Assembly: GCA_049968235.1 (NCBI GenBank)
Contig: JBMFRC010000002.1
Span: 64,001-128,000 of the forward strand
DNA: 64,000 nt
Reading direction: 5' to 3'
Source of the DNA: Candidatus Hydrogenedens sp.
GTDB lineage: Bacteria > Hydrogenedentota > Hydrogenedentia > Hydrogenedentales > Hydrogenedentaceae
In this document: one piece after another, positions 3,421 through 57,816 of the stretch
How the letters are laid out: each line of letters begins with the position of its first letter
How positions within the stretch are numbered: the first letter of the stretch is position 1
Notes under the pieces: model-generated
Databases searched by the model: none
Seen by the model: only the letters and a program-made list of their open reading frames with translations
Told to the model about the DNA's origin: nothing
Translations under genes and position numbers: made by a program

Positions 3421-4823
3421 ATGAAAAAATTATCAAGGAGAAATTTTCTTCTAAGTAGCACATTACCTCTGTTCCCATACATATATAAATCTACAAACAA
3501 GCAAAGCAATATAAATATTCTTCTTATCATTTCTGATGATTTGAACAATTACACTTCTTACTTAAATTGTGAACCTGAACTATTAACCCCGAACATTCAT
3601 TCACTGCAAAAACATTCTATTACCTTTGAAAATGCATATTGTCAGTATCCTCTTTGCCATCCATCAAGAACAAGTATGCTTACAGGACTTCATCCCTTCT
3701 CTACGGGCGTATACATGTCCGAACAGATTAATTCTGCAGAGTTGCCTATATTACCTCAGTATTTAAAGGAAACACATTACCTTACTGCTGGAATTGGAAA
3801 AGTATTTCATCCCAAATACAATATTGAAAATGTATGGGATTTTAACTTCGAAATATACGACAACCTTTACAATTTTATATACAAAAAAGATGACCCTTTA
3901 TCTGCACAAAATTTCTGTTATGGTCCTGTTGATATTTCCCTTGAAGATACTAATGACTACAAAATAGCCCAACAAGCAGTGGATTTTATTAAATCGAATA
4001 AAAATAATCCCTGGTTTCTTGCTATTGGTTTCCACACTCCTCATACCCCTCTTTTTGCACCCCGGGAGTTTTTCAAGAAAATCCCAAAAAATATTGTAAA
4101 AAAGCCTATCGTTCCCGACGATGATTTAAACGATATTCCAGAAGCAGGTATAAAATTAATAACGAAATACGATAAGGCAAACATACACCAACTTGTATTA
4201 GAAAGGAATATATGGGAAGAACTTATTTATGCCTATTTAGTTCGAATTGCATTCTTAGATGAACTTATTGGAAGCATATTAAAAAATCTTGAAGAAAGTA
4301 AGATATTTAACAATACTTGTATTCTTCTTTGCGGTGATAATGGATGGCATTTAGGGGAAAAGAAACGATGGCAGAAATTTACTCTATGGCAAGAAGCCAA
4401 TAAAGTCCCACTTATTCTGCATCTCCCTGATGGATATAAAGGAGGCTTAACCCTAAAAGAACCTGCTGGGCTTGTTGATATTTTCCCCACAATAACAGAC
4501 CTTCTCTCTTTAAATAAACCTGAAAATTAGAAGGTAAAAGTTTATTGCCTTCGATAAAAAAAGAAGTAATAGAAAATCCATATGTGGTAATTTCTCAGAT
4601 ATAAAATAACAATTTTGCCTTCCGTACGACACGATATTCGTATATTATTTATTATGATGGAAGCGAAGAACTATATGATTACCAATCAGACCCAGGAGAA
4701 TATCATAACATTGCTATGTTAGAAGAGAGTCAAGAAATAAAAAGGAATATCATTTCATTAATTCCCGATAATCAGCGGAAAAAGTTAGCCTCTATTATTA
4801 AAAAAGATATTTTCCAACCATAA
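3421..4823 (+). pseudogene. Cys-type (formylglycine) sulfatase with TAT signal, disrupted by a frameshift and an in-frame stop
   Basis: RRNFLL twin-arginine motif. Sulfatase signature CHPSRTSMLTG (C-x-P-S-R). Frame 1 ends at TAG 4528-4530 (..LSLNKPEN*). The conserved sulfatase C-terminus continues in frame 3 (GKSLLPSIKKEVIENPYVVISQI-TAA-NNNFAFRTTRYSYIIYYDGSEELYDYQSDPGEYHNIAM...QP*), ending at 4823. A TTG at 3418 is an alternative start. Confidence 0.6.
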
Positions 4824-4824
4824 A

Positions 4825-7482
4825 TCAATTCAAATAACCCAGATTTCTCAAAGTCTCCCTTGTTTCATCAGAGATATCCACTACCTTTCTTCCATCCTCT
4901 GTTCCTTTTGAATAGTACTCAACCCAGAAGAAAAATTCTTTTTTATCATTAGAATTGCCTGACTTCTGAACCTTCATATCTTCACTTGAGAAATAGAAAA
5001 ACTTTTCACCTTTTGACTGTAACAGATGATAACTAGAAGGATAACTTATTGCCCAACAATTTTGGATATGAATTTTCAACTCGCTTTTATCTTCTACCGG
5101 CATAATCTGAATTATTGCAGGTATAGAACTTTTTGGAAGAAATACATCTGCCTTCAAATCCATAGGTGTTGTTCTTTCATTTTTTGTCCGTAATACCCCT
5201 CCTTGAATTTTAGAAAATAGAATAGGCACAGAACATTGTATATTTACGGAACCTGTCCAGAAGGATACAGGATTCGAGAAACATAACCACCAACCTTCTT
5301 TTTTTAGTCCAAATTTTTGCATCAATAATATGGACATATCTTTAAATAATTCCGGTTGTTCTAAACTTACATCATAGTATTCTGCCATATTTTTTTGTAA
5401 ATCAAATAAAGATTTAACACCCTTAGGAATATCCTCCAAAAGTTTATACTGCTTTTTTACTAATGCCCTCATATCTCCTCTTAGACTTGATGAGAAAATA
5501 AGTCTTTCAGTCATTTTTTCTTTTGAAATAATATCTAACAAAGATACACCATCTAATGACACATCCTCTTTCTGATTTAATATTTCTAATATAGTAGGCA
5601 TTAAATCTTCCAGTATTACTCTATCTTTCACATGAAGTCCTGCATATTTGTTATTCGGGAATTTGATAATAGTTACATTCCTCATACTCTCCTCATACAC
5701 ATTATCATGTCCGTATAATCCATGTTCCCCTAAAGATTCCCCATGGTCAGAAACAACCGCTATAAAAGCAGAGTCATACAATCCAATGTCTTTTAAAAAA
5801 GCAAAAAAATCTCCTAAAGCATAATCTACTTTATAAACACAGTCATCATAAAGAGCATGAATATATGCAATCTCTTCCTCTGTTGGGTAAACATCCCCGG
5901 TTGCAAGATACTGAAGCAATAGCCCTAACGATGGGATATCTTCACAACCAATATAACCGTTTTCAGGTCTTACCATTCCTCGAGAAAACATTTTAAAATG
6001 TTCCTCACCCGCATCATAAATCAAATTTCCATACGCTTTTGAATGGACATCATAATTATGCATAAAGACAAATATTCGTTGATTTTGTTGATGGGCTATC
6101 CAATCTTTAGTTTCATTACAAACTTCCAATACAGTCCTCCGATTTCCTTCTCTTCCTTCTTCCGGTACAGAAAACAAATCCATTCCTCGTGCAAATCCAC
6201 GAGATGGAATAAACCACCATAAAAACCCCGCAAAACCTGCTGTTGTATATCCATAATCTCTCATCAGTTCAGGCAAGGTTCCCACATAAGGGTAAACATC
6301 TGTATTACGAGTTAAACCATGTCCTTCCGGAAATCGTCCTGTAAGCATGCTCATATGAGCCACAGGGGTAAATGTCTGGGTAGTATATGCATTTTCAAAA
6401 ACAACAGCATCCTTTGCAAAATTATCCAGATTTGGACTTGTAGGCAAATAATATCCATATGGTAGTAAATGGTCGGGTCTTAATGTATCGCAAGAAATAA
6501 TAAAAAAAGGGGGTCCCTTTTGGTTATTTTCAATTGTTGTATTTACAAGCATTGGATTTCCCCATACGCCGAAATCTCCAATGGAATTATTAATTGGGTT
6601 CATCTCAAAAATAAACTCTACCTCCTTACTTTCATATTTATCAAGACTTAATACACCTCTTTTCCATTTCCTATCTTCCTCTGTTACCTGTGGTCGCATT
6701 TCCGCATGATATATCGCATCTGTACTACCATCTGATACTATATGGATTGAAAAGGCTATTCCATCAGTCTGCCAATCTTGGCTTTCAGAAGTTTTCTTAT
6801 AAGCACCCAAAATAGGATTGTATATTCCAATATAAAAAATTAGTTTCATTCCCTGTTCAATTTTCCGAGTAAATATTACCTTTTCGTTCCATAAAACATC
6901 CATACACACACTACCTATTGTTAACTGTCGTGGATGTTTTTTTTCATAAGGCACAAAGTTTACTTTCTCTAAGTTTACTTCCTTCTCATCTGATATTCCT
7001 TGTATTTCTACCCATACCTTATCTACTGTATCAAATATAGGATTCTCTTTATCCGAAAATCTCAAAGCAAAGGAATATGTATGTATCTTCCCATCGTTAA
7101 TCAATCTCATCCCTTCGGAAGGGAAATAAATGTTATCATCCCATTTTTTACTTGACCAACCCCACCTTATTTCAGAACCCTTCTTACTGGATAAATATAT
7201 ATGAACAAATTGATACATTCCCATATCCATAGCGGATGACAGAGAAAATAACAGAATCTTTACATTTGGGTCCAAAGATTTTTTCCATTCTTTTCCCTCT
7301 AATATTAACTCTGGAAACTTTTCTCTTTTTTCCCAATATTCCTTCGAGAAACGGAATATGTCATCACCCCATGAGACACAACATATTGGTATAACAAACA
7401 TAAAAATAAAAACAATAAGAAGGGGAGTTTTCCTGTGAAAAAAAGAAACTATAGGTTTTTCTTTATATATATACTTATTCAT
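4825..7482 (-). CDS. Membrane-anchored sulfatase-fold (alkaline phosphatase superfamily) protein with novel N-terminal domain, paralog A (885 aa)
   Basis: N-terminal hydrophobic anchor followed by a roughly 300 aa domain with an IRWGWSS motif. Central sulfatase-like core FIISCDTLRPDHLLPYGY ... TFTPVAHMSMLTGRFPEGHG has Thr where FGly sulfatases have Cys and His where they have Arg. Metal/active-site-like blocks HGESLGEHGLYGH follow. The sulfatase-like C-terminus ends ..LRNLGYLN. Confidence 0.75.
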   Translation of the reverse strand: MNKYIYKEKPIVSFFHRKTPLLIVFIFMFVIPICCVSWGDDIFRFSKEYWEKREKFPELILEGKEWKKSLDPNVKILLFSLSSAMDMGMYQFVHIYLSSKKGSEIRWGWSSKKWDDNIYFPSEGMRLINDGKIHTYSFALRFSDKENPIFDTVDKVWVEIQGISDEKEVNLEKVNFVPYEKKHPRQLTIGSVCMDVLWNEKVIFTRKIEQGMKLIFYIGIYNPILGAYKKTSESQDWQTDGIAFSIHIVSDGSTDAIYHAEMRPQVTEEDRKWKRGVLSLDKYESKEVEFIFEMNPINNSIGDFGVWGNPMLVNTTIENNQKGPPFFIISCDTLRPDHLLPYGYYLPTSPNLDNFAKDAVVFENAYTTQTFTPVAHMSMLTGRFPEGHGLTRNTDVYPYVGTLPELMRDYGYTTAGFAGFLWWFIPSRGFARGMDLFSVPEEGREGNRRTVLEVCNETKDWIAHQQNQRIFVFMHNYDVHSKAYGNLIYDAGEEHFKMFSRGMVRPENGYIGCEDIPSLGLLLQYLATGDVYPTEEEIAYIHALYDDCVYKVDYALGDFFAFLKDIGLYDSAFIAVVSDHGESLGEHGLYGHDNVYEESMRNVTIIKFPNNKYAGLHVKDRVILEDLMPTILEILNQKEDVSLDGVSLLDIISKEKMTERLIFSSSLRGDMRALVKKQYKLLEDIPKGVKSLFDLQKNMAEYYDVSLEQPELFKDMSILLMQKFGLKKEGWWLCFSNPVSFWTGSVNIQCSVPILFSKIQGGVLRTKNERTTPMDLKADVFLPKSSIPAIIQIMPVEDKSELKIHIQNCWAISYPSSYHLLQSKGEKFFYFSSEDMKVQKSGNSNDKKEFFFWVEYYSKGTEDGRKVVDISDETRETLRNLGYLN

Positions 7483-7488
7483 ATCTGG

Positions 7489-10083
7489 CTATAAATATCC
7501 TGCATTCTTTATATTAGATATAGCATCTTCGGGTAGTTCAATTTCCTTCCGTTCATTTTCATTCGTTAATGGTTTTTGACGAATGAATATATATGTATTA
7601 CCATCGTTGAGAATATCAGGTATATTTTCCCAATACAAATTTTCTCCAGGTAATATAAATTCATACTCACTTACTAGTTCACTAATTCTATCTCGAGAAA
7701 CTACTTTAAATTTCTCCGGACTTCTAAAACCTATTCTTAATTCCTGTTTCATATCTTTCGGATATACATATAGGGAATAAGTATCTGCAATTTGTGGATA
7801 ACTTATGGTTCCATATAAACAATCCATTTTCTCCGCTTTCTTATACCAGAACATTATATTATCGGGTATCACCGAAATCAGATTGGGTCCGGGACATATA
7901 AATACCTCATCAGGAATATTTGTTTTTTTCCCTTTCATCTCGATAACCCAACCTTCTCCACTAAAAAATCTATAGGAACTCATTTCCGCTAAAAATTGTT
8001 TTACAAGGATATTTTCCTTTTCAAAAAGATTGACACATTCTGCCGGGTCCTGTAATAAATCAAAAAAACTCACCTTTGATTCTCTAAAAGAACAAATAAC
8101 CTTATGTTTATCCGATATGAGGGCTTCTTCATTCTGATATTGATTCTGAACGAAAATTTTCCTTGGAGTATTATATTCTCCTTCTATAATCTTAGACAGG
8201 GATACGCCATCCAGATTTTCATAGCTTATATTTAAATTATCCAGTATCGTAGGGACAATATCTTCTAAACAAACCAGATTTTCTATTCGTCTCCCGGCAT
8301 ATATAGCATTGGGGAACTTTATCATCATAGGAACTCGTGCAGTATGTTCATATACATCTACATGCTCATAACGACCATGTTCCCCTAATGCTTCTCCGTA
8401 GTCAGCAATCACTACAATAACAGATTTATCATACAAACCCTGTTCTTCCAAAAAATTAAACAGGTCACCTAACGCGTAATCTACTTTTGCAACGCAATCA
8501 TCATATAACGCATTGATATATAAATTTTCGTAAAAACCTAATTTCCCTAATGTTGCCTGTATGTGGTTAAAAAAACTTCTTGGATTAGGCATACATTCCG
8601 CTGTTAATAATTCAGGAACTTCGAGTATATCGCTGAAGAAAAAAAATCGAGCGTCTTCAGAACTATATATTGTCGCAGGGGGAAACATTCGGGTATGCAC
8701 ATCATAATTGTGTAAAAACACGAAAAGATTGTTATATTTCATCTTTTTTATTTCGTTCTTTAATATTTCTTGTGTAGAAAAAACATCGCGTAGATATTCT
8801 GGTGGATAAAAGAAACTATCCATCCCTCGCATATACCCTCTGGAAGGCAAAAACCATGTCGTTGCTCCTACCAATCCTATGGAATAGTACCCTAATTCTT
8901 TTAAATATTCTCCCAATAACTTAACATTATCATAAGCAGGAAGTTCTGCATTAACTCCATGGTTCTTCGGGAATAGCCCCGTTAAAAGACTCATATGAGC
9001 CACTGGAGTAAAGGTGCGTGTTGTATATGCTCGTTCAAATAATACTGCCTCCTTTGCAAATCTATCCAGATTTGGACTTGTTGGCAATGAATAACCATAT
9101 GGTAACAAATGGTCTGCTCGCATTGTATCGCAAGAAATAATAAATACGGGCGGATATTGCTTTGTTGTATCATCGTCATTTCGAATAATGATAGGATTAC
9201 CCCATAACCCATATTCTTCAGGAATATTTATCGCTGTTTTTTTGGTAAAAACAATTTGTACTTCTTTCCCTGCAAATTTTGATAGGTCTAATTCTGTAAA
9301 TCGCCATCCCTGGTCATCCTCTTTTTCCATCGGATTCATCTGATGTTCATATATATGTTCTTTTCTCTCATCACACGATACATCAATGGAAAAAGTATAT
9401 TTTTGTTTACTCCATTCTTGAACATACTTCTTCTGAGATAATGCTCCTACCTTTAGGTTATATATACCTGTATACAGTAGTAATCTATCCCCTGTTTGTA
9501 TTTTTGTAGTAAATGTCCAGATATCCTCAGGAATACAATTCATACATAATCCATTAAGCATAAATTGTCCCAATTCTGAAGGCAAATATCTAACTAATTC
9601 AACATTTTTCAATTGCAACCCATTATTAATCTTTTCTAAATTTGCAACTTCAATAATAAATTTATTGGCACTATCAACTATAGGGTTGATTTTATCAGGA
9701 TATTTAATTTCAAAAGTATATTGATGTAATTTGCCATCTGCAATCAGAGGAAGCTTATCTTCAGAAAAAGAATTCGGTCCTTCTTTATTTGCAGAACTCC
9801 ATCCCCATCGGATAAAAGCATTTTTGTCTGAAACCATCTCTATTTTTATTAGTTTGTATAAACTTAAATCTAAATGTATTTCATATTCAAAAAGAATCTT
9901 TCCTACCTCGCTTTGCTTCATCTGCCATTGTTCTCCGGAAATAGTTAAGTCAGTTCTCGGAAACTTATCATTCCAATATTTATCCGTTAGTCGAATGACC
10001 AATCCATAAGATTCCGACCACAAAAATACACTTATAAAGAGAACTTTTATTCCTATCTTGATATTTACATATCTGTTAAACAT
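7489..10083 (-). CDS. Membrane-anchored or secreted sulfatase-fold protein with novel N-terminal domain, paralog B (864 aa)
   Basis: Same architecture and motifs as paralog A: IRWGWSS, VFIISCDTMRADHLLPYGY, TFTPVAHMSLLTGLFPKNHG, YGEALGEHGRYEH, ends ..NAGYL. It lies 6 nt upstream of paralog A on the same strand. Confidence 0.75.
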   Translation of the reverse strand: MFNRYVNIKIGIKVLFISVFLWSESYGLVIRLTDKYWNDKFPRTDLTISGEQWQMKQSEVGKILFEYEIHLDLSLYKLIKIEMVSDKNAFIRWGWSSANKEGPNSFSEDKLPLIADGKLHQYTFEIKYPDKINPIVDSANKFIIEVANLEKINNGLQLKNVELVRYLPSELGQFMLNGLCMNCIPEDIWTFTTKIQTGDRLLLYTGIYNLKVGALSQKKYVQEWSKQKYTFSIDVSCDERKEHIYEHQMNPMEKEDDQGWRFTELDLSKFAGKEVQIVFTKKTAINIPEEYGLWGNPIIIRNDDDTTKQYPPVFIISCDTMRADHLLPYGYSLPTSPNLDRFAKEAVLFERAYTTRTFTPVAHMSLLTGLFPKNHGVNAELPAYDNVKLLGEYLKELGYYSIGLVGATTWFLPSRGYMRGMDSFFYPPEYLRDVFSTQEILKNEIKKMKYNNLFVFLHNYDVHTRMFPPATIYSSEDARFFFFSDILEVPELLTAECMPNPRSFFNHIQATLGKLGFYENLYINALYDDCVAKVDYALGDLFNFLEEQGLYDKSVIVVIADYGEALGEHGRYEHVDVYEHTARVPMMIKFPNAIYAGRRIENLVCLEDIVPTILDNLNISYENLDGVSLSKIIEGEYNTPRKIFVQNQYQNEEALISDKHKVICSFRESKVSFFDLLQDPAECVNLFEKENILVKQFLAEMSSYRFFSGEGWVIEMKGKKTNIPDEVFICPGPNLISVIPDNIMFWYKKAEKMDCLYGTISYPQIADTYSLYVYPKDMKQELRIGFRSPEKFKVVSRDRISELVSEYEFILPGENLYWENIPDILNDGNTYIFIRQKPLTNENERKEIELPEDAISNIKNAGYL

Positions 10084-13852: not shown

Positions 13853-15985
13853 ATGCTTGTAAATATTTTATTACTATTAAACACACTTATTCATGGTACT
13901 AATATCTGGATAGAACCGTCGTGGGTATCTACCAACCTTCCCCAACCATCTCCCAATTCTCATTATGAAGCACAAATTTTTTCTGCAAAAGGCGAAGCAG
14001 AATCTATTCATGTCCATATCGTTGCCGATAAAGACGACCTGAATAATTTATCCTGTGTTTTTGATAAAATGCCTGAAAATTTCCCCAATCCATTGTTATA
14101 CCAGGTATTACCTATACAGGGAGTTCCTCTTCCACAGGGGGGTATGGACCGAAGTCTTATATTTTTAGATATTCTAAAACCTTTCCAACCATTTAATCTC
14201 CTAAAAGGGCAAAAAGCAGTCTTCTGGATAACATTTCAAACCCCACGAACCATAAAAACAGGAATATATAAGACAGAATTGCAAATTAATGTGGAAGAAA
14301 AGAAACTGAAACGTATTCCTATTACCATTGAGGTTTTTGATTTTGAAATTCCGCGAACACCTTCTCTACCTGCTATTAGTTTTTTGGATTGGCAAATATT
14401 ACTACGAACAAATCCTCAATCTAAGTTATCCGATGATTTCTGGAAAAATCTTTTTAATTTTGTATATGACAAACGGCTTCAACTTTCATTAGGATCCTAT
14501 CTACAAAATCTCAACACGGATACTTTCACTATTCCTGAAAATTTGTGGAGAAACTATGTTAATTATATAAAAGAATACCATTCGCAGAATATCATAGACA
14601 TAACACCTCTACTATTACCTCCGGGTCCTCTGGAAACCGTTCGCACACTTTCAAAAAATGAAGAAAATATGATAAATGACATAAGGGGTATAAATAATGT
14701 CGCTATGGGAGCCCTTTTTTTTATGCCAAAAGATACCGGAGAAAATGACGCTTTACGACGATATTTAAGTTCCCTTTCCGAACAACTTCCTCTTGTCACA
14801 AGGATTTTTTGTGGTATTCCCTTACCCCAGTTTAATTTTTTTACAGACATCTGGGCTTTGCCTTTTTCTTCATTTGCCCCGGGATTAATGGAACGATTCG
14901 CAAAAGGTCTATCTATTGCAGATGAAATTACGTTTCCTATTAAGTCTATTTCTTCTTCCACTACCGGATTCATTCCCGGTTCTTATCCTCCTATTTTAAG
15001 TTCTCCATGGCAAGCCATAGATGCATGTATCTATACGGGATGGCTATCCTACCCGGCAGAAAAAGAGGGCAAAAAGGAATGGATAGAGATACAATTGAAA
15101 GAAAAAGTAATTGGTAATAAAATAGCCATTATTTGGGGTCCTGCCCAAATTCCCCAATCTATCGATATTCTAACTTCAAGAGATGGTATTCACTTTCTAA
15201 CATCCTCCGTAAATTGGAAACATATATCAGGGACTCTTTTTGACCCTGCTATATCATACGGAACTTTTAAATACAATCCCGACTTTTCTGCTATCCGTTT
15301 TGAATTTTCCCGAATTAAGAAAGGTGAATTTGTATATATTAAAGAGATACGGCTAAACCCAGATGAACAGAGTAAAGAACCTCGCACGGCTCCTGTAATT
15401 ACCCCGTGGTTATGGATTAATCCAGAGCAATATCCCTCACTTCGCTATGATTCCGCATCCATAGAACCCCGTATTATTCCATGGATATGCTGGAATTATG
15501 GCTTTAGAGGTATTATTCTCACTCCTCTGATTTCATGGGGCAATATTGTTACAAGACCCCAAAACATGGAAACTTTCCTATTTCAACCTCAAGACACATT
15601 ACAAATGTCTACTTTGCTTTATCCTGCAAAAGATACCTATCTACACTCTATTCGTTTAGAACGGCTCCGTGATGGATTGGAAGATTTTGAATATCTATTA
15701 CTTCTCGCTCAAAAAGCACAATCCCAAAAAATAATTAATAAAGAATGCTACAATTATCTAACTATGCAACTTGAAAAATTTGTTCCATGGAATGTTGTTC
15801 AGGAGGATTTTGCAAAAGAATTGATGATGAAAAGACTTTCTATTGGATATGAATTAAGCAACAGAGAATCCCCTTATAAACACGAAAAAAAAGAATTCTC
15901 ACCTAAAAAAGACAACGGAGAAATGGTTCGCATTTCCCCAAAAGTACAAAAAAACTTTTCTATCCGTCAAAAAACCACAGAATAA
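13853..15985 (+). CDS. Secreted hypothetical protein (710 aa), possibly a glycan-active enzyme with a discoidin-like segment
   Basis: N-terminal signal-like hydrophobic stretch. Segment EWIEIQLKEKVIGNKIAIIWGPAQIP..DILTSRDGIHF resembles an F5/8-type-C carbohydrate-binding fold. No catalytic motif recognised with confidence. Confidence 0.4.
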   Translation: MLVNILLLLNTLIHGTNIWIEPSWVSTNLPQPSPNSHYEAQIFSAKGEAESIHVHIVADKDDLNNLSCVFDKMPENFPNPLLYQVLPIQGVPLPQGGMDRSLIFLDILKPFQPFNLLKGQKAVFWITFQTPRTIKTGIYKTELQINVEEKKLKRIPITIEVFDFEIPRTPSLPAISFLDWQILLRTNPQSKLSDDFWKNLFNFVYDKRLQLSLGSYLQNLNTDTFTIPENLWRNYVNYIKEYHSQNIIDITPLLLPPGPLETVRTLSKNEENMINDIRGINNVAMGALFFMPKDTGENDALRRYLSSLSEQLPLVTRIFCGIPLPQFNFFTDIWALPFSSFAPGLMERFAKGLSIADEITFPIKSISSSTTGFIPGSYPPILSSPWQAIDACIYTGWLSYPAEKEGKKEWIEIQLKEKVIGNKIAIIWGPAQIPQSIDILTSRDGIHFLTSSVNWKHISGTLFDPAISYGTFKYNPDFSAIRFEFSRIKKGEFVYIKEIRLNPDEQSKEPRTAPVITPWLWINPEQYPSLRYDSASIEPRIIPWICWNYGFRGIILTPLISWGNIVTRPQNMETFLFQPQDTLQMSTLLYPAKDTYLHSIRLERLRDGLEDFEYLLLLAQKAQSQKIINKECYNYLTMQLEKFVPWNVVQEDFAKELMMKRLSIGYELSNRESPYKHEKKEFSPKKDNGEMVRISPKVQKNFSIRQKTTE

Positions 15986-19058: not shown

Positions 19059-19139
19059 AACTTCTTCCTTCTCTCTTCACTAAAATAAACGGGGAAAGAT
19101 TCCTTTCCCCGCACTGTGTTGAATATTGTCTTGATATTT

Positions 19140-22100
19140 TTAATTTGCCGGACCTACACCAAAGCCATCTTCTCCAACAGAATCGATATGATAACCGCCA
19201 GCATTAAAGAATTGAATTAATCGCAATAATTCAGTAAAGTCTATTTTCCAATTCTTAGGATTATAATCGGATGTGTGATAATTACAACTATGATTTACCC
19301 CATCACCAACATCATATCCATCTTCTGTAGATGTCGATACATCCGCACAGTGATATCCGAATGAATTAAAGAACTGAATTACACGCAATAACTCACGGAG
19401 TTCTATCTTCCAATTCCCGTTTACATCCGCACTATGTCGGGAAGGAGGTTCTCCTTCAGATACACCTTCTACAGTTCCTTCTCCCTCAGGCACACCTTCA
19501 GGACTTCCTTCTTCATTCGAAATCACAGTTGCAACCACAGGATAGACGAGCATATTGGGTCCACCTGTAAACGATACAATAGCAAGGTATTCCCCTGAAG
19601 AAAGGTCATTTGCACAGAATCTCACAACTATGGACTGGCTTTCTCCCGGAGCAAGATTATAATTATAATCAGAGGTAATTTGGAACACATCTGCTGATAA
19701 CTCTGGAGCACTTATTATCGCATTTCCTATCAAAGCAGATGTACTCAATTCAGAATTCATTATAGCAAATGTCCCTTCCACGCACTCACCCGCATTTACC
19801 TCACCTAGATCCAATACATAAGGATTAATAACTGGAACAACAATACTTTGTTCCCCCTCAGTTACTCCTTCGGGTTCGATAGGAAGAAACATTGCTTTTA
19901 GAACTGTATTTTGACTAATACTGAATGTTACAGGATTAGCTGTCCCAGCAAACTGCCCATTAATCGTCCAGCCCTGCCAGATATCTTTCGACGAATTATA
20001 AGTAGCCTGTGCGGTTACTGTGGTTCCAAAATAATAATACCCGGGCTGTAAACCTTCACTACTTTCAGGTGATACCTGAACTGAAACAGGAGCGGTATTC
20101 CCCTCTGTTACCACAGATAATTGATACATCGGTAAAATCTCACCTTCATTTGTCTCACTAAAGCATGGAGCACCACAGCCACCTCCATTACTCTTTGCCG
20201 TTGGGTCAACTGCAGAAACTACAAAGGTGATAATACTTTCTCCACTTTCATTGAAGGTAGCATTATATTCCGCTAAATTACAAACCCTATCTCCATCCGC
20301 ATCACCAAACGCACCTAAATACTGACTTGCAGAAGTATCCACCTGGTTTACTATGAAAGATATCCCTACCTGTCCTGCTATTTGAGAAAGCATTGATAAT
20401 GAAATACCTTCTCCCAATGTGGCTATTCCTGTAAATAATGCCTTCAACTGATTTACATCCACTTTTGATAAAATATTTTGAGGGATTACTCCCTGTGATA
20501 CCGCAGTATCAATTATATTCGTAAACAAGGCATAATTGCTTTGCCATGCAGACAATACACAACAACGGTTCTGAACACCCGGGTTCGCCAATATAATATC
20601 CAGAAGTTGCAATTGAGCAGACTCCACCATTTGATTACCATCGAAATCTGTTGTAATCGAATTAATACTCATCATTGAACAATATGCTTCCCACGCATTC
20701 CGGGCATTCCCTTGAACTCCAATATTACCACATGAGGTAATAGCACACGGTACTGGACAACCTTCAGGAATTTCTCCTTCACCCTCTACAATACCTTCAG
20801 TAGATCCTTCAGCGGAACCTTCTCCTTCAAAATTACCTTCGGGGAGCCCTTCAACAGTTCCCTCAGGTTCAATACACGGAGCATAACGGGACAGGTCACT
20901 TTCCTTATATTCAGAAGGAACTCCCTTTCCTGCTGAAATACCTGCTAATCCATCATACGCTTCTATATTTAACCACGTTATCGCAATCCGACCATCAAAG
21001 AACATCTCTATCTGGAAACTGGCTGTATCATTTGTAAAGTTACCATCAACCTTAACCTCATGATAGGTCACAACGAAACGGTCATCCAACTGCTTCCACC
21101 AGATTTGTCCGCCATCATTCGGTTTCAGATTATCAAACAGACCTGAAACACGCGGTATACGGAAATGATTTTCCGGTGATTCCTTATTCTCGGTATCCCC
21201 TTCTGTAAACGTTAAATAACCATTACTACCTATAAATACACGGTCATAAGCCACTCCATAAAGAATAACCTGTTTCCCGTCTGCCAGAGGTACCTCGACA
21301 TAGGCATCATCACCTAAACTGACCGGTGTTGAAAGTATCGAATCTACCGGGTAATCTGTAATCCCCGTAATAGTGCATGCAAAATAACCGTTAGCATTAT
21401 TCGCCGGAGTTAAAAGTAACCGTTTATTATCCAAGTCATTGTCAACAACAAAGTCTTCTGTAAACCAATCCGTTGCAGGTTGAGAGGGTGGACCGGAGGT
21501 AAAATTCACCTCACAAGGACGGAATTCTAAATCTAAGGGTCCGTTAAACGGGGACCAGGGTATCGTCATAATGGGTAAATCCCACCGACCTCCAAAAATA
21601 CTAATAAATACATTCGGATAAAACTTAACCGTTAAAATAAGGTTACAAATTTCATTATAGTTCATCACAGAGCGATAGCCATCTTCACCTACTTGTACGG
21701 GTACGGATTGTCCCTCCTCCCAGAATAATAAACCTTCCTGTAAACTTATAGTATCACATTCCAGGGAACCATTTGCATCCGCTGAAACATCAATACCTGC
21801 CCCTGATGAAAAAGGAATCCACTTTAACCAGTCCGGTAAAGTAACACCTACTAAGTTCAATATTACTTTTACAAGGTCCACATCAAACAAATGCGTTTTA
21901 GGTGTATTATCTTGAATCGTAGAGGCAGTATCTAACAAAAAACTATTAAAATAATCATATGCAGTTGTACGAAATTCCACATCAGGAATGTAAGGAACAT
22001 CTACTGTAAACGGAGGAATAATTCCTATATCAAACCCCGCTTTCATGAGCAATTCCGCTCCGAAATCATACCCCCAGAAGCCACTGGCATTACCTGCTGT

Positions 22101-22943
22101 TAACCATGGCGGATTTAAATGGAAAAAGCCCTGCACATCCGCCTGGTAATTAGCAACTGCTGCAGCGCGAATACGCACCTGAACTGGAAATCCTCCCGGA
22201 TTTTCCTCAAATCCACCCTCTCCTTTACCATTAGGCCACCAGCCTGAATCAAAACTTAGGTTTAACCCTTTCATTGGTGCGGTAAACTGGACAGGTTGCG
22301 TTTCTACTGCTTTACCTAAGTCTCCCTTTACATCAACCTTAACTATCTCTTCAACACCACCTGTAACAGTATATTCTGTATTAATTGATTTCATACCCGA
22401 ACAGGGTTCTAACACTTGTACAATAACTCCAGACTTCCCATCCTGTTGATAATCCCAGCGAATTAAAACGGGACGAACCCCATTTTCCGAATAAATCTCT
22501 TTCCTCTGCTCTACATATAAAAGTTTATCTTTCAAAAAACATTTCGTCTCACTTACACCTTCATTCCCTTTCGTTTGAACAATAGACCATTCTAAAGAAA
22601 TGTTTTCTAATTGCAATCGAAAATTCTTGCTACCATCGTTTGACATTATCTTTTCCGTCTTATCAAAATATTTCTCTAATAATGCACGATTCATTGAAGT
22701 AAAGCCAGGAAAGCCAACTCCTTGTTTACCGAATTGCATTATACTTCGACGAACAACGCCATCTTCGCTGAATTCCACATATTCCAGAGAACCCTCTTCT
22801 CTTGCTAACAACTGAAGTTTTGCATCAGGAGGAATATTATCTCCTTCCCAGCGTGCTGAATATACCCAGTATGATTCTGTAAAACCAACAGCAGAAATAC
22901 ATACAATAAGAATTAATGCAAACATTAACTTCTTGTATTCCAT
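19140..22943 (-). CDS. Giant secreted multidomain protein (1267 aa) with (P)EG-rich linkers and C-terminal dockerin/EF-hand-like tandem repeats
   Basis: Signal peptide MEYKKLMFALILIVCISAVGFT. Low-complexity linkers EPEGTVEGLPEGNFEGEGSAEGSTEGIVEGEGEIPEG and EEGSPEGVPEGEGTVEGVSEGEPP. Two C-terminal repeats: DVNGNWKIELRELLRVIQFFNSFGYHC and DYNPKNWKIDFTELLRLIQFFNAGGYHI. An internal GDADGDRVCNLAEY Ca-loop-like motif. Confidence 0.7.
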   Translation of the reverse strand: MEYKKLMFALILIVCISAVGFTESYWVYSARWEGDNIPPDAKLQLLAREEGSLEYVEFSEDGVVRRSIMQFGKQGVGFPGFTSMNRALLEKYFDKTEKIMSNDGSKNFRLQLENISLEWSIVQTKGNEGVSETKCFLKDKLLYVEQRKEIYSENGVRPVLIRWDYQQDGKSGVIVQVLEPCSGMKSINTEYTVTGGVEEIVKVDVKGDLGKAVETQPVQFTAPMKGLNLSFDSGWWPNGKGEGGFEENPGGFPVQVRIRAAAVANYQADVQGFFHLNPPWLTAGNASGFWGYDFGAELLMKAGFDIGIIPPFTVDVPYIPDVEFRTTAYDYFNSFLLDTASTIQDNTPKTHLFDVDLVKVILNLVGVTLPDWLKWIPFSSGAGIDVSADANGSLECDTISLQEGLLFWEEGQSVPVQVGEDGYRSVMNYNEICNLILTVKFYPNVFISIFGGRWDLPIMTIPWSPFNGPLDLEFRPCEVNFTSGPPSQPATDWFTEDFVVDNDLDNKRLLLTPANNANGYFACTITGITDYPVDSILSTPVSLGDDAYVEVPLADGKQVILYGVAYDRVFIGSNGYLTFTEGDTENKESPENHFRIPRVSGLFDNLKPNDGGQIWWKQLDDRFVVTYHEVKVDGNFTNDTASFQIEMFFDGRIAITWLNIEAYDGLAGISAGKGVPSEYKESDLSRYAPCIEPEGTVEGLPEGNFEGEGSAEGSTEGIVEGEGEIPEGCPVPCAITSCGNIGVQGNARNAWEAYCSMMSINSITTDFDGNQMVESAQLQLLDIILANPGVQNRCCVLSAWQSNYALFTNIIDTAVSQGVIPQNILSKVDVNQLKALFTGIATLGEGISLSMLSQIAGQVGISFIVNQVDTSASQYLGAFGDADGDRVCNLAEYNATFNESGESIITFVVSAVDPTAKSNGGGCGAPCFSETNEGEILPMYQLSVVTEGNTAPVSVQVSPESSEGLQPGYYYFGTTVTAQATYNSSKDIWQGWTINGQFAGTANPVTFSISQNTVLKAMFLPIEPEGVTEGEQSIVVPVINPYVLDLGEVNAGECVEGTFAIMNSELSTSALIGNAIISAPELSADVFQITSDYNYNLAPGESQSIVVRFCANDLSSGEYLAIVSFTGGPNMLVYPVVATVISNEEGSPEGVPEGEGTVEGVSEGEPPSRHSADVNGNWKIELRELLRVIQFFNSFGYHCADVSTSTEDGYDVGDGVNHSCNYHTSDYNPKNWKIDFTELLRLIQFFNAGGYHIDSVGEDGFGVGPAN

Positions 22944-23165
22944 TGCAACTCTCCTTTATATTTTTTATTGATTTGTATTAAATTTCTTAATCCCTCAAAC
23001 ATAATTCTAAAACCACAAAACCATAAATACCATAAAAATTGACCTTTTATATAATCTTACCATTATTTTATACAAATTTCAATTTTTTTATGACAAATTT
23101 TTATTTTGATAAAAGAATAAAATAAGGTGTATGATAAATTAAACAGAAAAAGAAGGAGTACTGCA

Positions 23166-24209: not shown

Positions 24210-27047
24210 ATGAATTTTATAGTCTTCATTCCGTTGCTACTTCATCTCCTTCATTTCCCACAAATAAACAATCCTTTTGAAAATGCACATTTAATCATAG
24301 ACCCACGTATGAAAGATGTTATCCCTAATAACAATTTCATGACGAACACAAAAAATGACTGGATAAAAGACAGTCCCCACCAGATACATACACTATTCAG
24401 AAAAATTTTTGTTGTTGAAAAATTTCCTAAATTGGCAGAGATATATATTACTGCAGATGACTATTTTAAACTCTATATAAATGGTGAACATATTTTAGAA
24501 GGTCCAACAAACGGTTATCCTTTTGCCTACCCTTATTTTAAGTTTAACCTGACCCCATTCATTAGGACAGGGACAAATATACTGGCTATTCACACATATT
24601 ACAGAGGGTTAATAAATCGTGTTTGTGTCAGTGGTGATAATCGTTCCGGGCTTATCTTGAAACTTATACTTACCGATATGGAGGGACGAAAAACAGAGAT
24701 TGTATCTGATACAACATGGAAATGCTTCCCTCTGGATGCATTTATTACGACTGACACTATAGGTTATAAAACACAATTCATTGAGAATATAGATATGCTA
24801 AAATACCCAAAAGACTGGCAATCCCTTGATTTCGATGATAGCCACTGGATAAACCCCGAATTAGGAAAAAGTGACTACACTTTTGTTGACTTACCTGCAA
24901 AACCATTAGAAATAAAAAATGTTTTCCCCAAAGAAAAGAAAAAAATTAATTCAGGACATTTCATTTTTGATTTCGGTCGCGAAGTCGTTGGATACACGAG
25001 AATAAAAACTAGGGGTGAAAGAGGACAAAAAATGATAGTTTATCATGGGGAAGAACTGGATGAAAACGGATATGTCCGCTGGCAAATGCGAGCATACTGT
25101 GATTACAAAGAAGAAATCATTTTATCCGGTGAAGAAGATATTTCTCCTTTCTATGAATACCGTGCCTTTCGATATATTGAATTGGATAATGCTCCCGAAG
25201 AAACCTCCGTATGGGTTGAAGAACGCCATTACCCATTTGACACCACAAAAGTTCTCTTTTATTCTTCAGATAAGGATTTAACAAATATATGGGATATTTG
25301 TCAATTGGGAGTTCGACTTTGCTCGCAAGAAGGCTTTTTGGATTGTCCTTCCCGTGAAAAAGGACAATATTTAGGAGATGCAGTTATTACATCTCGTTCC
25401 TTTATGTGGCTTACAGGAGATACTTCATTAACAAAAAAATCATTAATAGATTTTTCTCTTTCAACAAAAATAGATCCTGGTCTAACAGCGGTTGCACCTT
25501 CCGGGTTTATTCAAGAACTTGCCGAATACTCCCTTCAATATCCATTAATGCTATGGGAATACTATCGTCATTCCGGTGACAAAGATTTTCTAAAAGCAAT
25601 GGCAACAGAATGTTTACCATCACTCCTATACTATTTTGCACAGTTTGAAAATGAATCCGGCTTATTAAACTCTACCGGGAAAAAACCTATTTTGATTGAT
25701 TGGCCCAAAAACCTTCGTGATAATTTCGATTATGATTATGCCCAGAACAAACCTAATGCGGTCGTTAATGCTTTTTATTACGGAGCCGTTACAACAACAC
25801 TGGAAATACAAAAGACGCTCGGCATAGAAGACACTGCACTCAAAGAAAAAGCAGAAAAAATATGGAATGGCTATCAAAAAATCTTTCTGGACTCTGAAAA
25901 GAAACTTTATAAAGATGCTCCAAACTCGAAACATTATGCTCTGCATAGCAATGCTCTACCTCTCTACTTTGGATTGGTAAAAGATGAAAAAGTAAAAGAA
26001 AATATTTTCTCTTTAATTGAACAAAAAGGACTTTACTGTGGTGTTTATATCGCATCTTACATCATTGAAGCATGCTTCAAAGAAGGAAATCCCGAATTAG
26101 GATGGAAACTATTAACAAACAACACAGAATATTCATGGAAGGAAATGCTTCGCAATGGGGCTACTTCCTGCCTTGAAGTGTGGAAACCCGAAATGAAATC
26201 AAATATGAGTTGGTGTCATGCATGGAGTAGTTGCCCTATTTATCTCTTATCGGAATATGTATTAGGTCTAAAAATCGGCAAACCCGGCTGGGAAGAAATC
26301 CACTTCTCCCCAGCAAAAATAAACGATTTACCCGATATGTTTCTCATTAAACCCTTACCTGATGGAGGTTATTGCTCTGTGAATATAAAAAACAATAACT
26401 ATAACCTGACCGTTCCTGAGAATATTCATGTAATAACAGATGGTGTGCAGTGTGGAAATATTTCTGTTCATACTGTTTTATCTCACCAAAGTCCGACAGA
26501 ACTATCCGAAGAAGAAAAGACACTACTGAAAAATTATCAGTGGGACATAAAGACAGAAAACACTCGAGGAATTTGGGTTTCTATCAAAAAACAAAAATTA
26601 TATGTAATTGAAAAAAACAAAGTAGTATGGCAAACTCTTTGTTCCACTGGGATAAAAGGAATAGGTGAAAAATTAGGTTCCGAACAAACCCCCAGAGGGT
26701 GGCATCAAATTGTTGAAAAAATTGGTGACAATGCCCCATGGGGACAAATCTTTCGCAATCGTCAACCCGTAGGGATATGGGATAAAAGTCAGATTACAGA
26801 TGAATCCCTTGTCCTAACTCGAATACTGCGTCTTGATGGCTTGGAAGAAACAAAGAATAAAGGTATTAATAACGAAGGAGAAATTGTAGATTCGTATCAA
26901 CGATTCATTTACATTCATGGCACCAATAAAGAAGAACTTATAGGCACTCCTTTTACACGTGGTTGTATCGGTCTAACTAATAATGATGTGATTATGCTCT
27001 ACAACATTGTTCCCCTCAACACGAAAGTTCTTATTACAGAAGAATAA
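24210..27047 (+). CDS. GH78 alpha-L-rhamnosidase-like glycoside hydrolase fused to a C-terminal L,D-transpeptidase (YkuD) domain (945 aa)
   Basis: N-terminal Bac_rhamnosid_N-like YITADDYFKLYINGEHILEGP. Six-hairpin catalytic-region motif LDCPSREKGQYLGDA. C-terminal YkuD-like block ..IYIHGTNKEELIGTPFTRGCIGLTNND (His ... Cys catalytic pair). Confidence 0.7.
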   Translation: MNFIVFIPLLLHLLHFPQINNPFENAHLIIDPRMKDVIPNNNFMTNTKNDWIKDSPHQIHTLFRKIFVVEKFPKLAEIYITADDYFKLYINGEHILEGPTNGYPFAYPYFKFNLTPFIRTGTNILAIHTYYRGLINRVCVSGDNRSGLILKLILTDMEGRKTEIVSDTTWKCFPLDAFITTDTIGYKTQFIENIDMLKYPKDWQSLDFDDSHWINPELGKSDYTFVDLPAKPLEIKNVFPKEKKKINSGHFIFDFGREVVGYTRIKTRGERGQKMIVYHGEELDENGYVRWQMRAYCDYKEEIILSGEEDISPFYEYRAFRYIELDNAPEETSVWVEERHYPFDTTKVLFYSSDKDLTNIWDICQLGVRLCSQEGFLDCPSREKGQYLGDAVITSRSFMWLTGDTSLTKKSLIDFSLSTKIDPGLTAVAPSGFIQELAEYSLQYPLMLWEYYRHSGDKDFLKAMATECLPSLLYYFAQFENESGLLNSTGKKPILIDWPKNLRDNFDYDYAQNKPNAVVNAFYYGAVTTTLEIQKTLGIEDTALKEKAEKIWNGYQKIFLDSEKKLYKDAPNSKHYALHSNALPLYFGLVKDEKVKENIFSLIEQKGLYCGVYIASYIIEACFKEGNPELGWKLLTNNTEYSWKEMLRNGATSCLEVWKPEMKSNMSWCHAWSSCPIYLLSEYVLGLKIGKPGWEEIHFSPAKINDLPDMFLIKPLPDGGYCSVNIKNNNYNLTVPENIHVITDGVQCGNISVHTVLSHQSPTELSEEEKTLLKNYQWDIKTENTRGIWVSIKKQKLYVIEKNKVVWQTLCSTGIKGIGEKLGSEQTPRGWHQIVEKIGDNAPWGQIFRNRQPVGIWDKSQITDESLVLTRILRLDGLEETKNKGINNEGEIVDSYQRFIYIHGTNKEELIGTPFTRGCIGLTNNDVIMLYNIVPLNTKVLITEE

Positions 27048-56775: not shown

Positions 56776-57816
<1,041 letters not shown>

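What the first reader, a model, noticed from the sequence alone, without database searches (positions are those of the whole stretch)
19140..22943. 1267-aa secreted giant protein with PEG/EG linkers and two C-terminal dockerin/EF-hand-like repeats
The C-terminal 100 aa contain two copies of D-x-N-x-(N/K)-NWKI-(E/D)-x-x-ELLR(V/L)IQFFN-x-x-GYH. The D-x-N-x-N..K.E....E spacing mimics a Ca-binding F-hand loop followed by a helix, as in dockerin modules (DVNGDGKVNSTDLTLLKRY). A single similar loop (GDADGDRVCNLAEY) occurs mid-protein. Linker regions are reiterated (P)EG/(V)EG tracts. Together this suggests a large cell-surface, possibly Ca-dependent, protein-docking or adhesin system whose partner (a cohesin-like protein) is not in this window.
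Basis: partly seen in the sequence, partly recalled or inferred. Interest (0 to 1): 0.6.

Follow-up and report, generated by a model that had tools for sequence, protein, structure and literature searches.

The report
Dockerin-like calcium tag on secreted protein
The last 100 residues of this secreted 1267-residue protein form a previously undescribed, calcium-loop-containing, dockerin-like module that thousands of unrelated secreted proteins of the uncultured phylum Hydrogenedentota carry at their C-terminus, most likely as a common docking or anchoring tag whose receptor is still unknown.

Summary
ORF 19140-22943 (-) encodes a 1267-aa protein with an N-terminal signal-like segment, EG-rich linkers and two C-terminal repeats (internal alignment z = 22).

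The window is syntenic with Candidatus Hydrogenedens terephthalaticus (84% nt identity).

The two repeats form one ~100-aa module. A profile of it finds 3019 protein clusters. In 123 of 128 single-copy top hits it ends within 6 residues of the C-terminus. The cargo domains are unrelated (proteases, LRR, Ig-like, beta-helix). At least 14 copies occur per genome.

Loop 1 is a canonical 12-residue EF-hand loop. Loop 2 is a conserved 13-residue variant. Each is followed by an almost invariant helix, ELLR(V/L)IQFFN, and a hairpin that is disulfide-linked in most members.

This protein scores below threshold for Pfam Dockerin_1 and EF-hand. No NCBIfam sorting-signal model matches. No cohesin is in the window, and no paper found describes the module.

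Verdict: a new variant of the dockerin/F-hand kind. It is probably a Ca-dependent docking tag. The partner and the Ca binding are untested.

The parts
19140..22943 (-). Whole gene, 1267 aa plus stop. A conserved orthologue group in Hydrogenedens-like genomes.
   Evidence: ORF. (12 full-length orthologues, 49-88% identity, no Pfam domain). (synteny with Ca. Hydrogenedens terephthalaticus at 84% nt identity).
22872..22943 (-). aa 1-24: signal-peptide-like N-terminus (MEYKK + hydrophobic core). No conserved lipobox Cys.
   Evidence: Sequence. Orthologue alignment. Helix 2-18 in the model. Cleavage site not predicted with a tool.
22404..22877 (-). aa 23-180: first cargo domain, tentatively a LolA-like open beta-barrel.
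21486..22304 (-). aa 214-486: second cargo domain with very long beta-strands and the invariant FDSGWWPNGK...GGFPVQVR motif. Function unknown. It shuffles independently into other module-bearing proteins.
   Evidence: shared with P0079 and P0080. Low-confidence model.
20874..21476 (-). aa 490-690: third cargo domain (beta-rich, invariant GSNGYLTFT). Unassigned.
   Evidence: No Pfam hit.
20760..20873 (-). aa 691-728: EG-rich linker 1 (IEPEGTVEGLPEGNFEGEGSAEGSTEGIVEGEGEIPEG).
   Evidence: Its length varies among orthologues.
20154..20759 (-). aa 729-930: Cys-rich middle domain with two EF-hand-type loops.
   Evidence: Invariant Cys 729, 733, 738, 794, 795, 888, 923, 927.
20613..20648 (-). aa 766-777: DFDGNQMVESAQ, an EF/dockerin-like loop with Q at position 12.
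   Evidence: D766, D768 and N770 invariant in 13 sequences.
20265..20303 (-). aa 881-893: DADGDRVCNLAEY, the mid-protein EF-hand loop.
   Evidence: Exact PS00018 match. Invariant in orthologues.
19563..19847 (-). aa 1033-1127: Ig-like beta-sandwich, weakly choice-of-anchor-D / HYDIN-VesB-like.
   Evidence: NF012200 E 5e-4, 20.5 bits (cutoff 45). PF22544 E 0.023. Both are below threshold.
19452..19520 (-). aa 1142-1164: EG-rich linker 3, directly upstream of the module.
   Evidence: Across the family the 50 aa upstream of the module have a median of 54% E+G.
19143..19439 (-). aa 1169-1267: the C-terminal dockerin-like module (two F-hand repeats).
19284..19436 (-). aa 1170-1220: repeat 1. Order: HSAD, 12-residue loop (aa 1173-1184, nt 19392-19427), helix ELLRVIQFFN, YHC strand, EDGY hairpin, Cys1220. 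Probable disulfide Cys1199-Cys1220.
   Evidence: The disulfide is inferred from the conserved Cys pair.
19143..19277 (-). aa 1223-1267: repeat 2. Order: HTSD, 13-residue loop (aa 1226-1238, nt 19230-19268), helix ELLRLIQFFN, YHI strand, EDGF hairpin. It lacks the second Cys pair that most family members have.
19089..19112 (-). Terminator-like hairpin (10-bp stem, T-rich tail) 28 nt after the stop codon.
   Evidence: A consensus match only.
23054..23082 (-). Promoter-like site (TTGAAA-17-TAAGAT with TG) upstream of the ATG.
   Evidence: The number of such sites is not above the shuffle expectation.

Best explanation
The protein is exported through Sec and consists of several cargo domains strung on flexible acidic EG linkers. 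It ends in an autonomous ~100-residue module built from two F-hand units.

Each unit is a Ca-binding loop followed by an amphipathic helix, ELLR(V/L)IQFFN, and then a small hairpin. In most family members, but only in repeat 1 here, that hairpin is pinned by a disulfide. The two helices pack against each other as in a dockerin.

The most likely role is a shared, Ca-dependent docking tag. The same module, with almost invariant helix residues in both repeats, is appended to many unrelated secreted proteins of each Hydrogenedentota genome. It would tether them to one conserved receptor on the cell surface, or to each other. That receptor could be a cohesin-like or other protein, or a surface glycan.

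Shown: the repeat, its family, its C-terminal position, its diverse cargo, the EF-hand-type loop conservation and the dockerin-like predicted topology.

Inferred: Ca binding, the disulfides, export, and the docking function. The receptor is unknown.
For: 1. The repeat is real (z = 22).
2. Loop 1 across 111 modules reads D98%-x-N/D93%-x-D/N97%-x-x-I/V98%-x-L97%-x-E100%, a textbook EF-hand loop. Loop 2 is a conserved 13-residue variant, S-D98-Y96-N62-P79-Q72-D/N95-W97-x-I/V-x-L-x-E100.
3. Of 66 members, 30 hit EF-hand_6 (best 4e-8), 21 hit EF-hand_1 and 10 hit Dockerin_1 (best 4.4e-6). The profile against PDB sequences returns only EF-hand proteins, and weakly.
4. The AlphaFold model has pLDDT 90.4 and pTM 0.79. 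Its only helices are 25-36 and 79-90, each starting at loop position 10. There is no entering helix, so these are F-hands, not EF-hands.
6. There are 3019 clusters with E <= 1e-3 and 1501 with E <= 1e-30. In 123 of 128 single-copy top hits the module ends within 6 aa of the C-terminus, and protein lengths range from 97 to 2552 aa.
7. Cargo is diverse: 67 proteins carry 67 different Pfam families, typical of extracellular proteins.
8. Many copies occur per genome: at least 14 and at least 12 within only the best 80 of 402 loci.
9. The two helices are nearly identical to each other and invariant across the family (E, L, R, I, Q and N at 100%). This fits one conserved binding partner and dockerin-like internal symmetry.
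10. Some proteins carry the module N-terminally or in tandem (P0212, P0221, P0083, P0087, P0090), as expected of an autonomous binding module.
11. Cys pairs are conserved (2+2 in 106 of 120) and 44 of 67 full-length members have N-terminal hydrophobic segments. Both fit an extracytoplasmic location.
Against: - This protein scores below Pfam thresholds: Dockerin_1 16.1 vs 22.9 bits, EF-hand_6 15.2 vs 25.
- hhalign against two genuine dockerins aligns only the Ca loop (probability 13%).
- Position 6 of loop 1 is Trp here, not Gly. Loop 2 has an extra residue, and its position-3 Asn is only 62% conserved.
- No cohesin was found in the window, and no recurrent neighbour gene at 80 loci.
- Ca binding, the disulfides and surface location were not tested.
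- The strong C-terminal bias would also fit a secretion signal.
Confidence: 0.55

Rival explanations
1. The module is a folded C-terminal secretion or sorting domain, analogous in logic to the T9SS C-terminal domain. An outer-membrane translocon or sorting enzyme peculiar to Hydrogenedentota would recognise it, and it might then be cleaved off or used for covalent attachment.
For: It is C-terminal in 123 of 128 single-copy cases. It is attached to many unrelated exported proteins per genome. The sequence is extremely conserved, suggesting one recognition machine. A weak choice-of-anchor-D-like domain sits just upstream, and domains of that family are named for preceding alternative C-terminal anchors (the naming logic is established knowledge of NCBIfam).
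Against: No known sorting-signal model matches. There is no C-terminal transmembrane helix. The fold is not the beta-sandwich of T9SS CTDs. The module also occurs N-terminally, internally and in tandem, which a positional signal would not tolerate. Ca loops and disulfides suggest a stable, functional extracellular domain.
Confidence: 0.2
2. The module is simply a Ca-binding stabilising or sensing domain, with no specific receptor. It could be an extracellular EF-hand-like pair that promotes Ca-dependent folding after export, or that binds Ca-bridged polymers such as EPS or LPS non-specifically.
For: EF-hand family hits are more frequent than Dockerin hits (30 vs 10 of 66). PDB sequence matches are all EF-hand proteins. 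The same protein has two further EF-type loops in its middle domain. No partner was found.
Against: A pure stability or Ca-buffer role does not explain invariant, surface-capable polar helix residues (R, Q, N) in both repeats across thousands of unrelated cargos. It also does not explain the near-exclusive terminal position behind a flexible linker.
Confidence: 0.15
3. This is a canonical type I dockerin of a cellulosome-like system, with a classical cohesin scaffoldin elsewhere in the genome.
For: Top structural hits are type I dockerins. Some members pass Dockerin_1. The window encodes glycoside hydrolases and sulfatases.
Against: The Pfam threshold is not met here. hhalign finds no similarity beyond the loop. 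The module is ~100 aa rather than ~60-70 aa, with extra hairpins, disulfides and a 13-residue loop. Cargo is mostly non-cellulolytic: proteases, LRR, Ig-like. No cohesin was found in the window.
Confidence: 0.07

Closest known systems
Type I dockerin modules (Pfam PF00404; e.g. C. thermocellum CelS 2mte/1daq, C. cellulolyticum Cel5A 2vn5)
   Same: Both have a tandem duplication of a Ca-loop plus helix (F-hand) with no entering helix, and two near-identical helices giving internal symmetry. Both are mostly C-terminal, sit behind a flexible linker, and are attached to many different secreted proteins of one organism. Dockerins are the best structural matches.
   Different: This module is ~100 aa rather than 60-70 aa. 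Each repeat has an added GYHC...EDGY hairpin and usually a disulfide. The second loop has 13 residues. The helix motif ELLR(V/L)IQFFN is unlike dockerin helices. The sequence is below the Pfam threshold and hhalign probability is 13%. The partner is unknown. The host is the poorly characterised candidate phylum Hydrogenedentota, not a clostridial cellulosome producer, and the cargo is not cellulolytic.
Non-cellulosomal dockerin-like modules (Peer et al. 2009, cited in PMC9012536 and PMC6487960; ANME archaea, PMC9012536)
   Same: Dockerin-like modules on diverse non-cellulolytic extracellular proteins, in organisms without classical scaffoldins. Their function is unclear.
   Different: Those were found with standard dockerin models. 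This family is largely invisible to them and has its own conserved architecture. It appears nearly confined to one phylum.
EF-hand Ca-binding motifs (PF13405, PF00036, PF13202; PROSITE PS00018)
   Same: Loop 1 has the canonical ligand pattern at positions 1, 3, 5, 8 and 12, and many members pass EF-hand models.
   Different: The model has no entering (E) helix. The module is extracellular and disulfide-bonded. Loop 1 of this protein has Trp at position 6 and fails PS00018.
Atypical dockerins of Ruminococcus flavefaciens (e.g. ScaA dockerin, PMC3821032)
   Same: They are a precedent for dockerins with an unusual second F-hand loop and extra stabilising elements (an intramolecular clasp).
   Different: There is no sequence relationship, and the stabilising elements differ (hairpins and disulfides here).
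T9SS C-terminal domains and other C-terminal sorting tags (PEP-CTERM, LPXTG)
   Same: The genomic logic is the same: one conserved C-terminal element on many unrelated exported proteins.
   Different: The fold is different, there is no TM helix, and no model matches. The module is not strictly C-terminal.

Membership tests
Dockerin type I (PF00404) | Score at or above the Pfam gathering threshold (22.9 bits) | tested here: not met
   16.1 bits, E 0.013, for the last 110 aa (15.6 bits). 10 of 66 family members match at E < 0.1, best 4.4e-6.
Dockerin type I (PF00404) | Two tandem segments, each a Ca-binding loop followed by a helix (F-hand), without an entering helix | tested here: met
   Internal repeat z = 22. 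The model has helices 25-36 and 79-90 only, each beginning at loop position 10.
Dockerin type I (PF00404) | 12-residue loops with D/N ligands at positions 1, 3, 5, 9 and 12 in both segments | tested here: inconclusive
   Loop 1 fits (D-V-N-G-N-W-K-I-E-L-R-E; family conservation 93-100% at positions 1, 3, 5, 12). Loop 2 has 13 residues.
Dockerin type I (PF00404) | Dockerin fold (structural superposition) | tested here: inconclusive
   [not shown]
Dockerin type I (PF00404) | Profile-level sequence homology to genuine dockerins | tested here: not met
   hhalign of A5 against CelS + CelD dockerins: probability 13%, 15 aligned columns. The template profile had only 2 sequences.
Dockerin type I (PF00404) | Binds a cohesin partner encoded in the same genome | not testable with these tools
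   No cohesin among the 44 ORFs of at least 150 aa in the window. No recurrent neighbour at 80 loci. Whole genomes could not be scanned.
Dockerin type I (PF00404) | Binds two Ca2+ ions, which are needed for folding | not testable with these tools
   No model coordinates and no ion modelling were available. Sequence evidence only.
EF-hand (PF13405 / PF00036 / PS00018) | Score above threshold or pattern match in the C-terminal module | tested here: not met
   EF-hand_6 gives 15.2 bits against a cutoff of 25. PS00018 does not match loop 1 (Trp at position 6) but does match the mid-protein loop 881-893. 30 of 66 family members hit EF-hand_6.
EF-hand (PF13405 / PF00036 / PS00018) | Helix-loop-helix with an entering helix | tested here: not met
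   Residues before both loops are coil in the pLDDT-90 model.
T9SS C-terminal domain / PEP-CTERM / other NCBIfam sorting signals | Match to a curated sorting-signal model; for PEP-CTERM or LPXTG, a C-terminal TM helix plus basic tail | tested here: not met
   0 NCBIfam families for the last 119 aa at E <= 1. Only spurious hits for 40 modules. The protein ends ...GEDGFGVGPAN with no hydrophobic stretch. The model is helix plus hairpins, not a beta-sandwich.
Choice-of-anchor D (NF012200) | Score at or above the curated cutoff (45 bits) | tested here: not met
   20.5 bits, E 5e-4, at aa 1033-1111.
LolA superfamily (N-terminal cargo domain) | Open beta-barrel fold with helical plug | tested here: inconclusive
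   [not shown]

The most novel reading that the evidence does not exclude
The module is the address tag of a phylum-specific surface-display or secretion system that does not use cohesins. In this reading a single conserved receptor or translocon in Hydrogenedentota recognises the invariant, internally duplicated ELLR(V/L)IQFFN helix pair and so organises a large part of the exoproteome (more than 10 cargos per genome). The rare membrane-anchored or tandem-module proteins such as P0090 and P0083 could serve as hubs.
Probability: 0.3. Interest if true: 0.7.

Novelty: new variant of a known kind. Interest (0 to 1): 0.5.

Why it matters
Hydrogenedentota is a globally distributed phylum known essentially from metagenome-assembled genomes. 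How its cells present enzymes, adhesins and proteases to the outside is unknown.

A single, easily recognised tag on thousands of its secreted proteins would do three things:
- define the phylum's surface or exo-proteome directly from sequence;
- point to a missing receptor or machine that could be found by co-occurrence analysis or pull-down;
- add a structurally distinct, disulfide-braced branch to the dockerin/F-hand family, which is of interest for protein-assembly engineering.

There is also a practical consequence. The tag and its EG linkers break metagenome assemblies and leave many 'partial hypothetical protein' fragments, some of them misnamed. A curated model would improve annotation.

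Tried and rejected
- Pfam and NCBIfam on the whole protein and on its last 119 aa gave only sub-threshold hits.
- A PDB sequence search with the module profile gave only weak EF-hand matches, E 0.14-2.5. With the full-length orthologue profile it gave nothing.
- The afdb50 fold library was unavailable.
- hhalign against a two-sequence dockerin profile gave 13% probability. The template was very shallow, so this is a weak negative.
- A search for a recurrent neighbour gene at 80 loci found only antisense-ORF artefacts and local synteny.
- All ORFs of at least 150 aa in the window were scanned for cohesin or secretion components. None was found; the region is ordinary chromosomal housekeeping plus sulfatases and glycosidases.
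- Literature searches for Hydrogenedentes/Hydrogenedentota with dockerin or EF-hand, and three phylum-focused papers, do not mention the module.
- Peer et al. 2009 could not be read.
- The N-terminal 700 aa modelled poorly (pLDDT 60.5). The LolA-like and lipovitellin/porin-like matches are therefore only hints.
- The word-index homologue searches returned mainly short contig-end fragments. Family size and position come from the exhaustive representative search instead.
- RTX/T1SS was considered and rejected: no GGxGxD repeats, and an N-terminal signal-like segment is present.
- A chance or low-complexity origin was rejected (z = 22, plus the family).


Full report
**1. Observation**

The ORF at 19140-22943 on the minus strand is real: ATG start, 1267 aa.

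- It begins with a basic plus hydrophobic segment, MEYKKLMFALILIVCISAVGF, typical of a Sec signal peptide. This is an inference, because no predictor was available.
- It contains EG-rich linkers at aa 691-728 and 1142-1164.
- The last 100 residues hold two copies of H-x-x-D-x-N-...-NWKI-x-x-x-ELLR(V/L)IQFFN-x-x-GYH. This motif occurs nowhere else in the six-frame translation of the window.
- The two units align with a score of 117, against 21.5 +/- 4.3 for shuffles (z = 22).
- The mid-protein loop DADGDRVCNLAEY (aa 881-893) fits the PROSITE EF-hand pattern exactly (the pattern was written from memory). It is invariant in 12 orthologues.

**2. Organism and context**

- Window positions 13-25.5 kb are collinear with contig AWNW01000051 of Candidatus Hydrogenedens terephthalaticus at about 84% nucleotide identity. 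They are also collinear with three further MAG contigs.
- Full-length orthologues of 1267-1307 aa and 49-88% identity exist in related metagenomes. None has a Pfam domain or a name.
- All 44 ORFs of at least 150 aa in the window were scanned against Pfam.
- Neighbours include an amidohydrolase, a PHP-domain protein, EF-P, a rhamnosidase-YkuD fusion, three sulfatases, sensor kinases, FtsH, MurB and mreBCD-pbp2-rodA.
- There is no cohesin and no recognisable secretion-system gene.
- The gene has a terminator-like hairpin 28 nt after its stop codon, so it is probably a transcription unit of its own.

**3. The C-terminal 100 aa are a widespread module**

- A search with the 100 aa returned 65 proteins. 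All are short, and most are labelled 'partial' from Hydrogenedentes MAGs, several per MAG.
- They are short because contigs break in or next to the repetitive EG linkers. Many fetched loci start inside an EGEGEG run.
- An exhaustive HMM search of 1.84 billion cluster representatives with the module alignment found 3019 proteins at E <= 1e-3 and 1501 at E <= 1e-30.
- Among the best 150, lengths range from 97 to 2552 aa. The module ends within 6 residues of the C-terminus in 131 of them, and in 123 of the 128 with a single copy.
- A few proteins carry it right after the signal peptide (P0212 with a sulfatase-like body, P0221 with LRRs) or in tandem (P0083 and P0090 with three copies, P0087 with two, P0081 with four).
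- A DNA-pattern scan of species-representative genomes confirmed 402 copies. The best 80 come from 19 assemblies, with at least 14 and at least 12 copies in two of them.
- In those loci, 77 of 84 module ORFs that reach a stop codon end 28-45 aa after the last ELLR motif.
- Named hits are almost all Hydrogenedentes or Hydrogenedens. There is one Kiritimatiellae MAG and one Paceibacterota MAG; the latter is named 'EF-hand domain-containing protein'.

**4. Cargo**

- Sixty-seven full-length module proteins carry 67 different Pfam families.
- These include InlB B-repeat (11 proteins), bacterial surface Ig-like (8), PASTA, LRR, CHRD, P-domain, beta-helix, peptidases M4, M14 and C1, FG-GAP and cadherin-like. 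All are typical extracytoplasmic domains.
- By a crude test, 44 of the 67 have an N-terminal hydrophobic segment.
- The 50 aa upstream of the module have a median of 54% Glu+Gly.
- The N-terminal domains of the window protein also recombine. P0080 shares aa 9-486 and adds a P-domain. P0079 shares aa 214-691. Both end in the same module.

**5. Anatomy of the module**

Loop statistics come from 111 modules.

- Repeat 1: H89%-S/T-A-D98-x-N/D93-x-D/N97-x-x-I/V98-x-L97-x-E100-L-L-R100-V-I100-Q100-F-F-N100. This is the canonical 12-residue EF-hand loop, with ligands at positions 1, 3, 5 and 12 and a hydrophobic residue at position 8.
- Repeat 2: S88-D98-Y96-N62-P79-Q72-D/N95-W97-x-I/V-x-L-x-E100-LLR-L-IQFFN. 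This is the same frame with one extra residue between positions 3 and 5.
- Each helix is followed by G-G-Y-H-C ... E-D-G-Y/F-x-P-G ... C.
- The Cys pattern is 2+2 in 106 of 120 modules. The window protein and its orthologues belong to a rare 2+0 subtype that lacks the second pair.
- Loop 1 of this protein reads DVNGNWKIELRE. The ligand positions are intact, with Trp at position 6.

**6. Relationship to known families**

- Pfam on this protein gives Dockerin_1 at 16.1 bits (cutoff 22.9) and EF-hand_6 at 15.2 bits (cutoff 25). Both fall on repeat 1.
- Across 66 members, 30 hit EF-hand_6 (best 4e-8), 21 hit EF-hand_1, 20 hit EF-hand_5, 12 hit EF-hand_7 and 10 hit Dockerin_1 (best 4.4e-6).
- The module profile against PDB sequences returns only EF-hand proteins, at E 0.14-2.5.
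- NCBIfam has no model for the module and no sorting-signal hit.
- AlphaFold2 with the 66-sequence alignment gives pLDDT 90.4 and pTM 0.79.
- In that model each repeat is coil (the loop), then a 12-residue helix that starts at loop position 10, then a two-stranded hairpin. There is no helix before either loop. This is the F-hand arrangement of dockerins rather than the helix-loop-helix of EF-hands (term as used in PMC3821032).
- Foldseek also ranks dockerins first, but with E 1.9-9 and TM normalised to the target of 0.45-0.56.
- hhalign of the module profile against CelS and CelD dockerins aligns only 15 loop columns, probability 13%.
- Conclusion for this section: the module works like a dockerin in topology and in genomic usage. 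It is not a member of PF00404 by the family's own criteria. It has features dockerins lack: ~100 aa, two hairpins, disulfides, a 13-residue second loop and a distinct invariant helix motif.

**7. Mechanism**

The best-supported reading is a Ca-stabilised docking tag. After Sec export the loops would bind Ca2+ and the Cys pair(s) would oxidise. The two helices would then present a conserved, internally duplicated surface to a common receptor.

- This would tether diverse cargo, held at the end of flexible acidic linkers, to the cell surface or to each other.
- The near-identity of the two helices, and their invariance across unrelated cargos and genomes, argue for one conserved partner.
- The occasional N-terminal or tandem placement argues for an autonomous binding module rather than a positional signal.
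- What is shown: the repeat, the family, its position, its cargo diversity, the loop conservation and the predicted topology.
- What is inferred: Ca binding, the disulfides, export, docking, and the existence of a receptor.
- No partner was found. There is no cohesin in the window and no recurrent neighbour at 80 loci. Whole genomes could not be scanned.

Rivals, in order of weight:
- a secretion or sorting domain in the manner of a T9SS CTD, which fits the strong C-terminal bias but not the fold, the lack of model hits, or the non-terminal copies;
- a generic Ca-binding or stabilising domain, which fits the EF-hand hits but not the invariant helix surface;
- a classical cellulosomal dockerin, which is disfavoured by thresholds, hhalign, architecture and cargo.

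**8. The rest of the protein**

- The model of aa 1-700 is poor overall: mean pLDDT 60.5, and 70-87 for aa 23-180.
- This hints at a hydrophobic-ligand-binding cargo, but it is tentative.
- aa 729-930 is a Cys-rich domain with two EF-type loops.
- aa 1033-1127 is weakly Ig-like and choice-of-anchor-D-like.
- aa ~938-1020 resembles by eye the InlB B-repeat that is common in the family, but it gave no Pfam hit.

**9. Novelty**

- Non-cellulosomal dockerin-like modules are known in many bacteria and archaea (Peer et al. 2009, as cited in PMC9012536; ANME archaea in PMC9012536). The kind is therefore known.
- This family, however, has no Pfam or NCBIfam model. Its public names are 'hypothetical protein', 'LRR domain-containing protein' or, wrongly, 'YbcJ S4-like'.
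- It is not mentioned in the Hydrogenedentota papers that could be searched.
- I rate it a new variant of a known kind, of moderate interest. It would be higher if the receptor proves to be something other than a cohesin.

Noticed in passing
window 40981-43662 (-): An 893-aa protein made almost entirely of ankyrin repeats (Ank_2 E 7.5e-133, 12 stretches). This is a eukaryote-like repeat protein, unusual in size for a bacterium.
   Followed up: no
window 24210-27047 (+): A 945-aa fusion of an alpha-L-rhamnosidase (N, concanavalin-like and six-hairpin domains) with a C-terminal YkuD L,D-transpeptidase domain. This is an odd combination.
   Followed up: no
window 3418-10083: Three sulfatase-family genes in a row (370, 885 and 864 aa). 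The two long ones have ~310-aa N-terminal extensions without a Pfam hit. GH30 (43683-45056) and a weak GH123-like protein (13853-15985) lie nearby. Together these suggest degradation of sulfated glycans.
   Followed up: no
window 20613-20648 and 20265-20303 (-), aa 766-777 and 881-893: The Cys-rich middle domain of the same protein has two EF/dockerin-type loops ~115 residues apart, both invariant in orthologues. They may form a third Ca-binding unit.
   Followed up: partly
[not shown]
   Followed up: partly
L007, L012, L024-L026, L028, L030, L042, L051, L072 (starts of loci): Many public MAG contigs begin inside the EGEGEG linker just upstream of the module. The linker and module evidently break short-read assemblies, which explains the many 'partial' 80-170-aa proteins in databases.
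   Followed up: partly
P0008, P0028: JGI names two module fragments 'ribosome-associated protein YbcJ (S4-like RNA binding protein)'. Pfam S4_2 and NCBIfam YaaA hit the module only weakly (E 0.03-0.055). This is probably an annotation artefact.
   Followed up: partly
L004, L008-L010, L012 and other loci: Several MAGs titled 'uncultured Nitrospirales bacterium' carry many copies of the module. One of them (L004) also carries a syntenic orthologue of this Hydrogenedens gene at ~71% nt identity. Their taxonomic labels are probably wrong.
   Followed up: partly
P0083, P0087, P0090, P0081: Some proteins consist largely of 2-4 tandem modules. One (P0090) has a C-terminal transmembrane helix. In several of these copies the first helix is degenerate (e.g. 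ELNYAASLQK) while the second keeps ELLRLVQFYN. They are candidate hubs or adaptors of the putative docking system.
   Followed up: no
window 56788-62530 (+): A complete mreB-mreC-mreD-pbp2-rodA rod-shape operon. This is ordinary and supports a rod-shaped cell with peptidoglycan.
   Followed up: no
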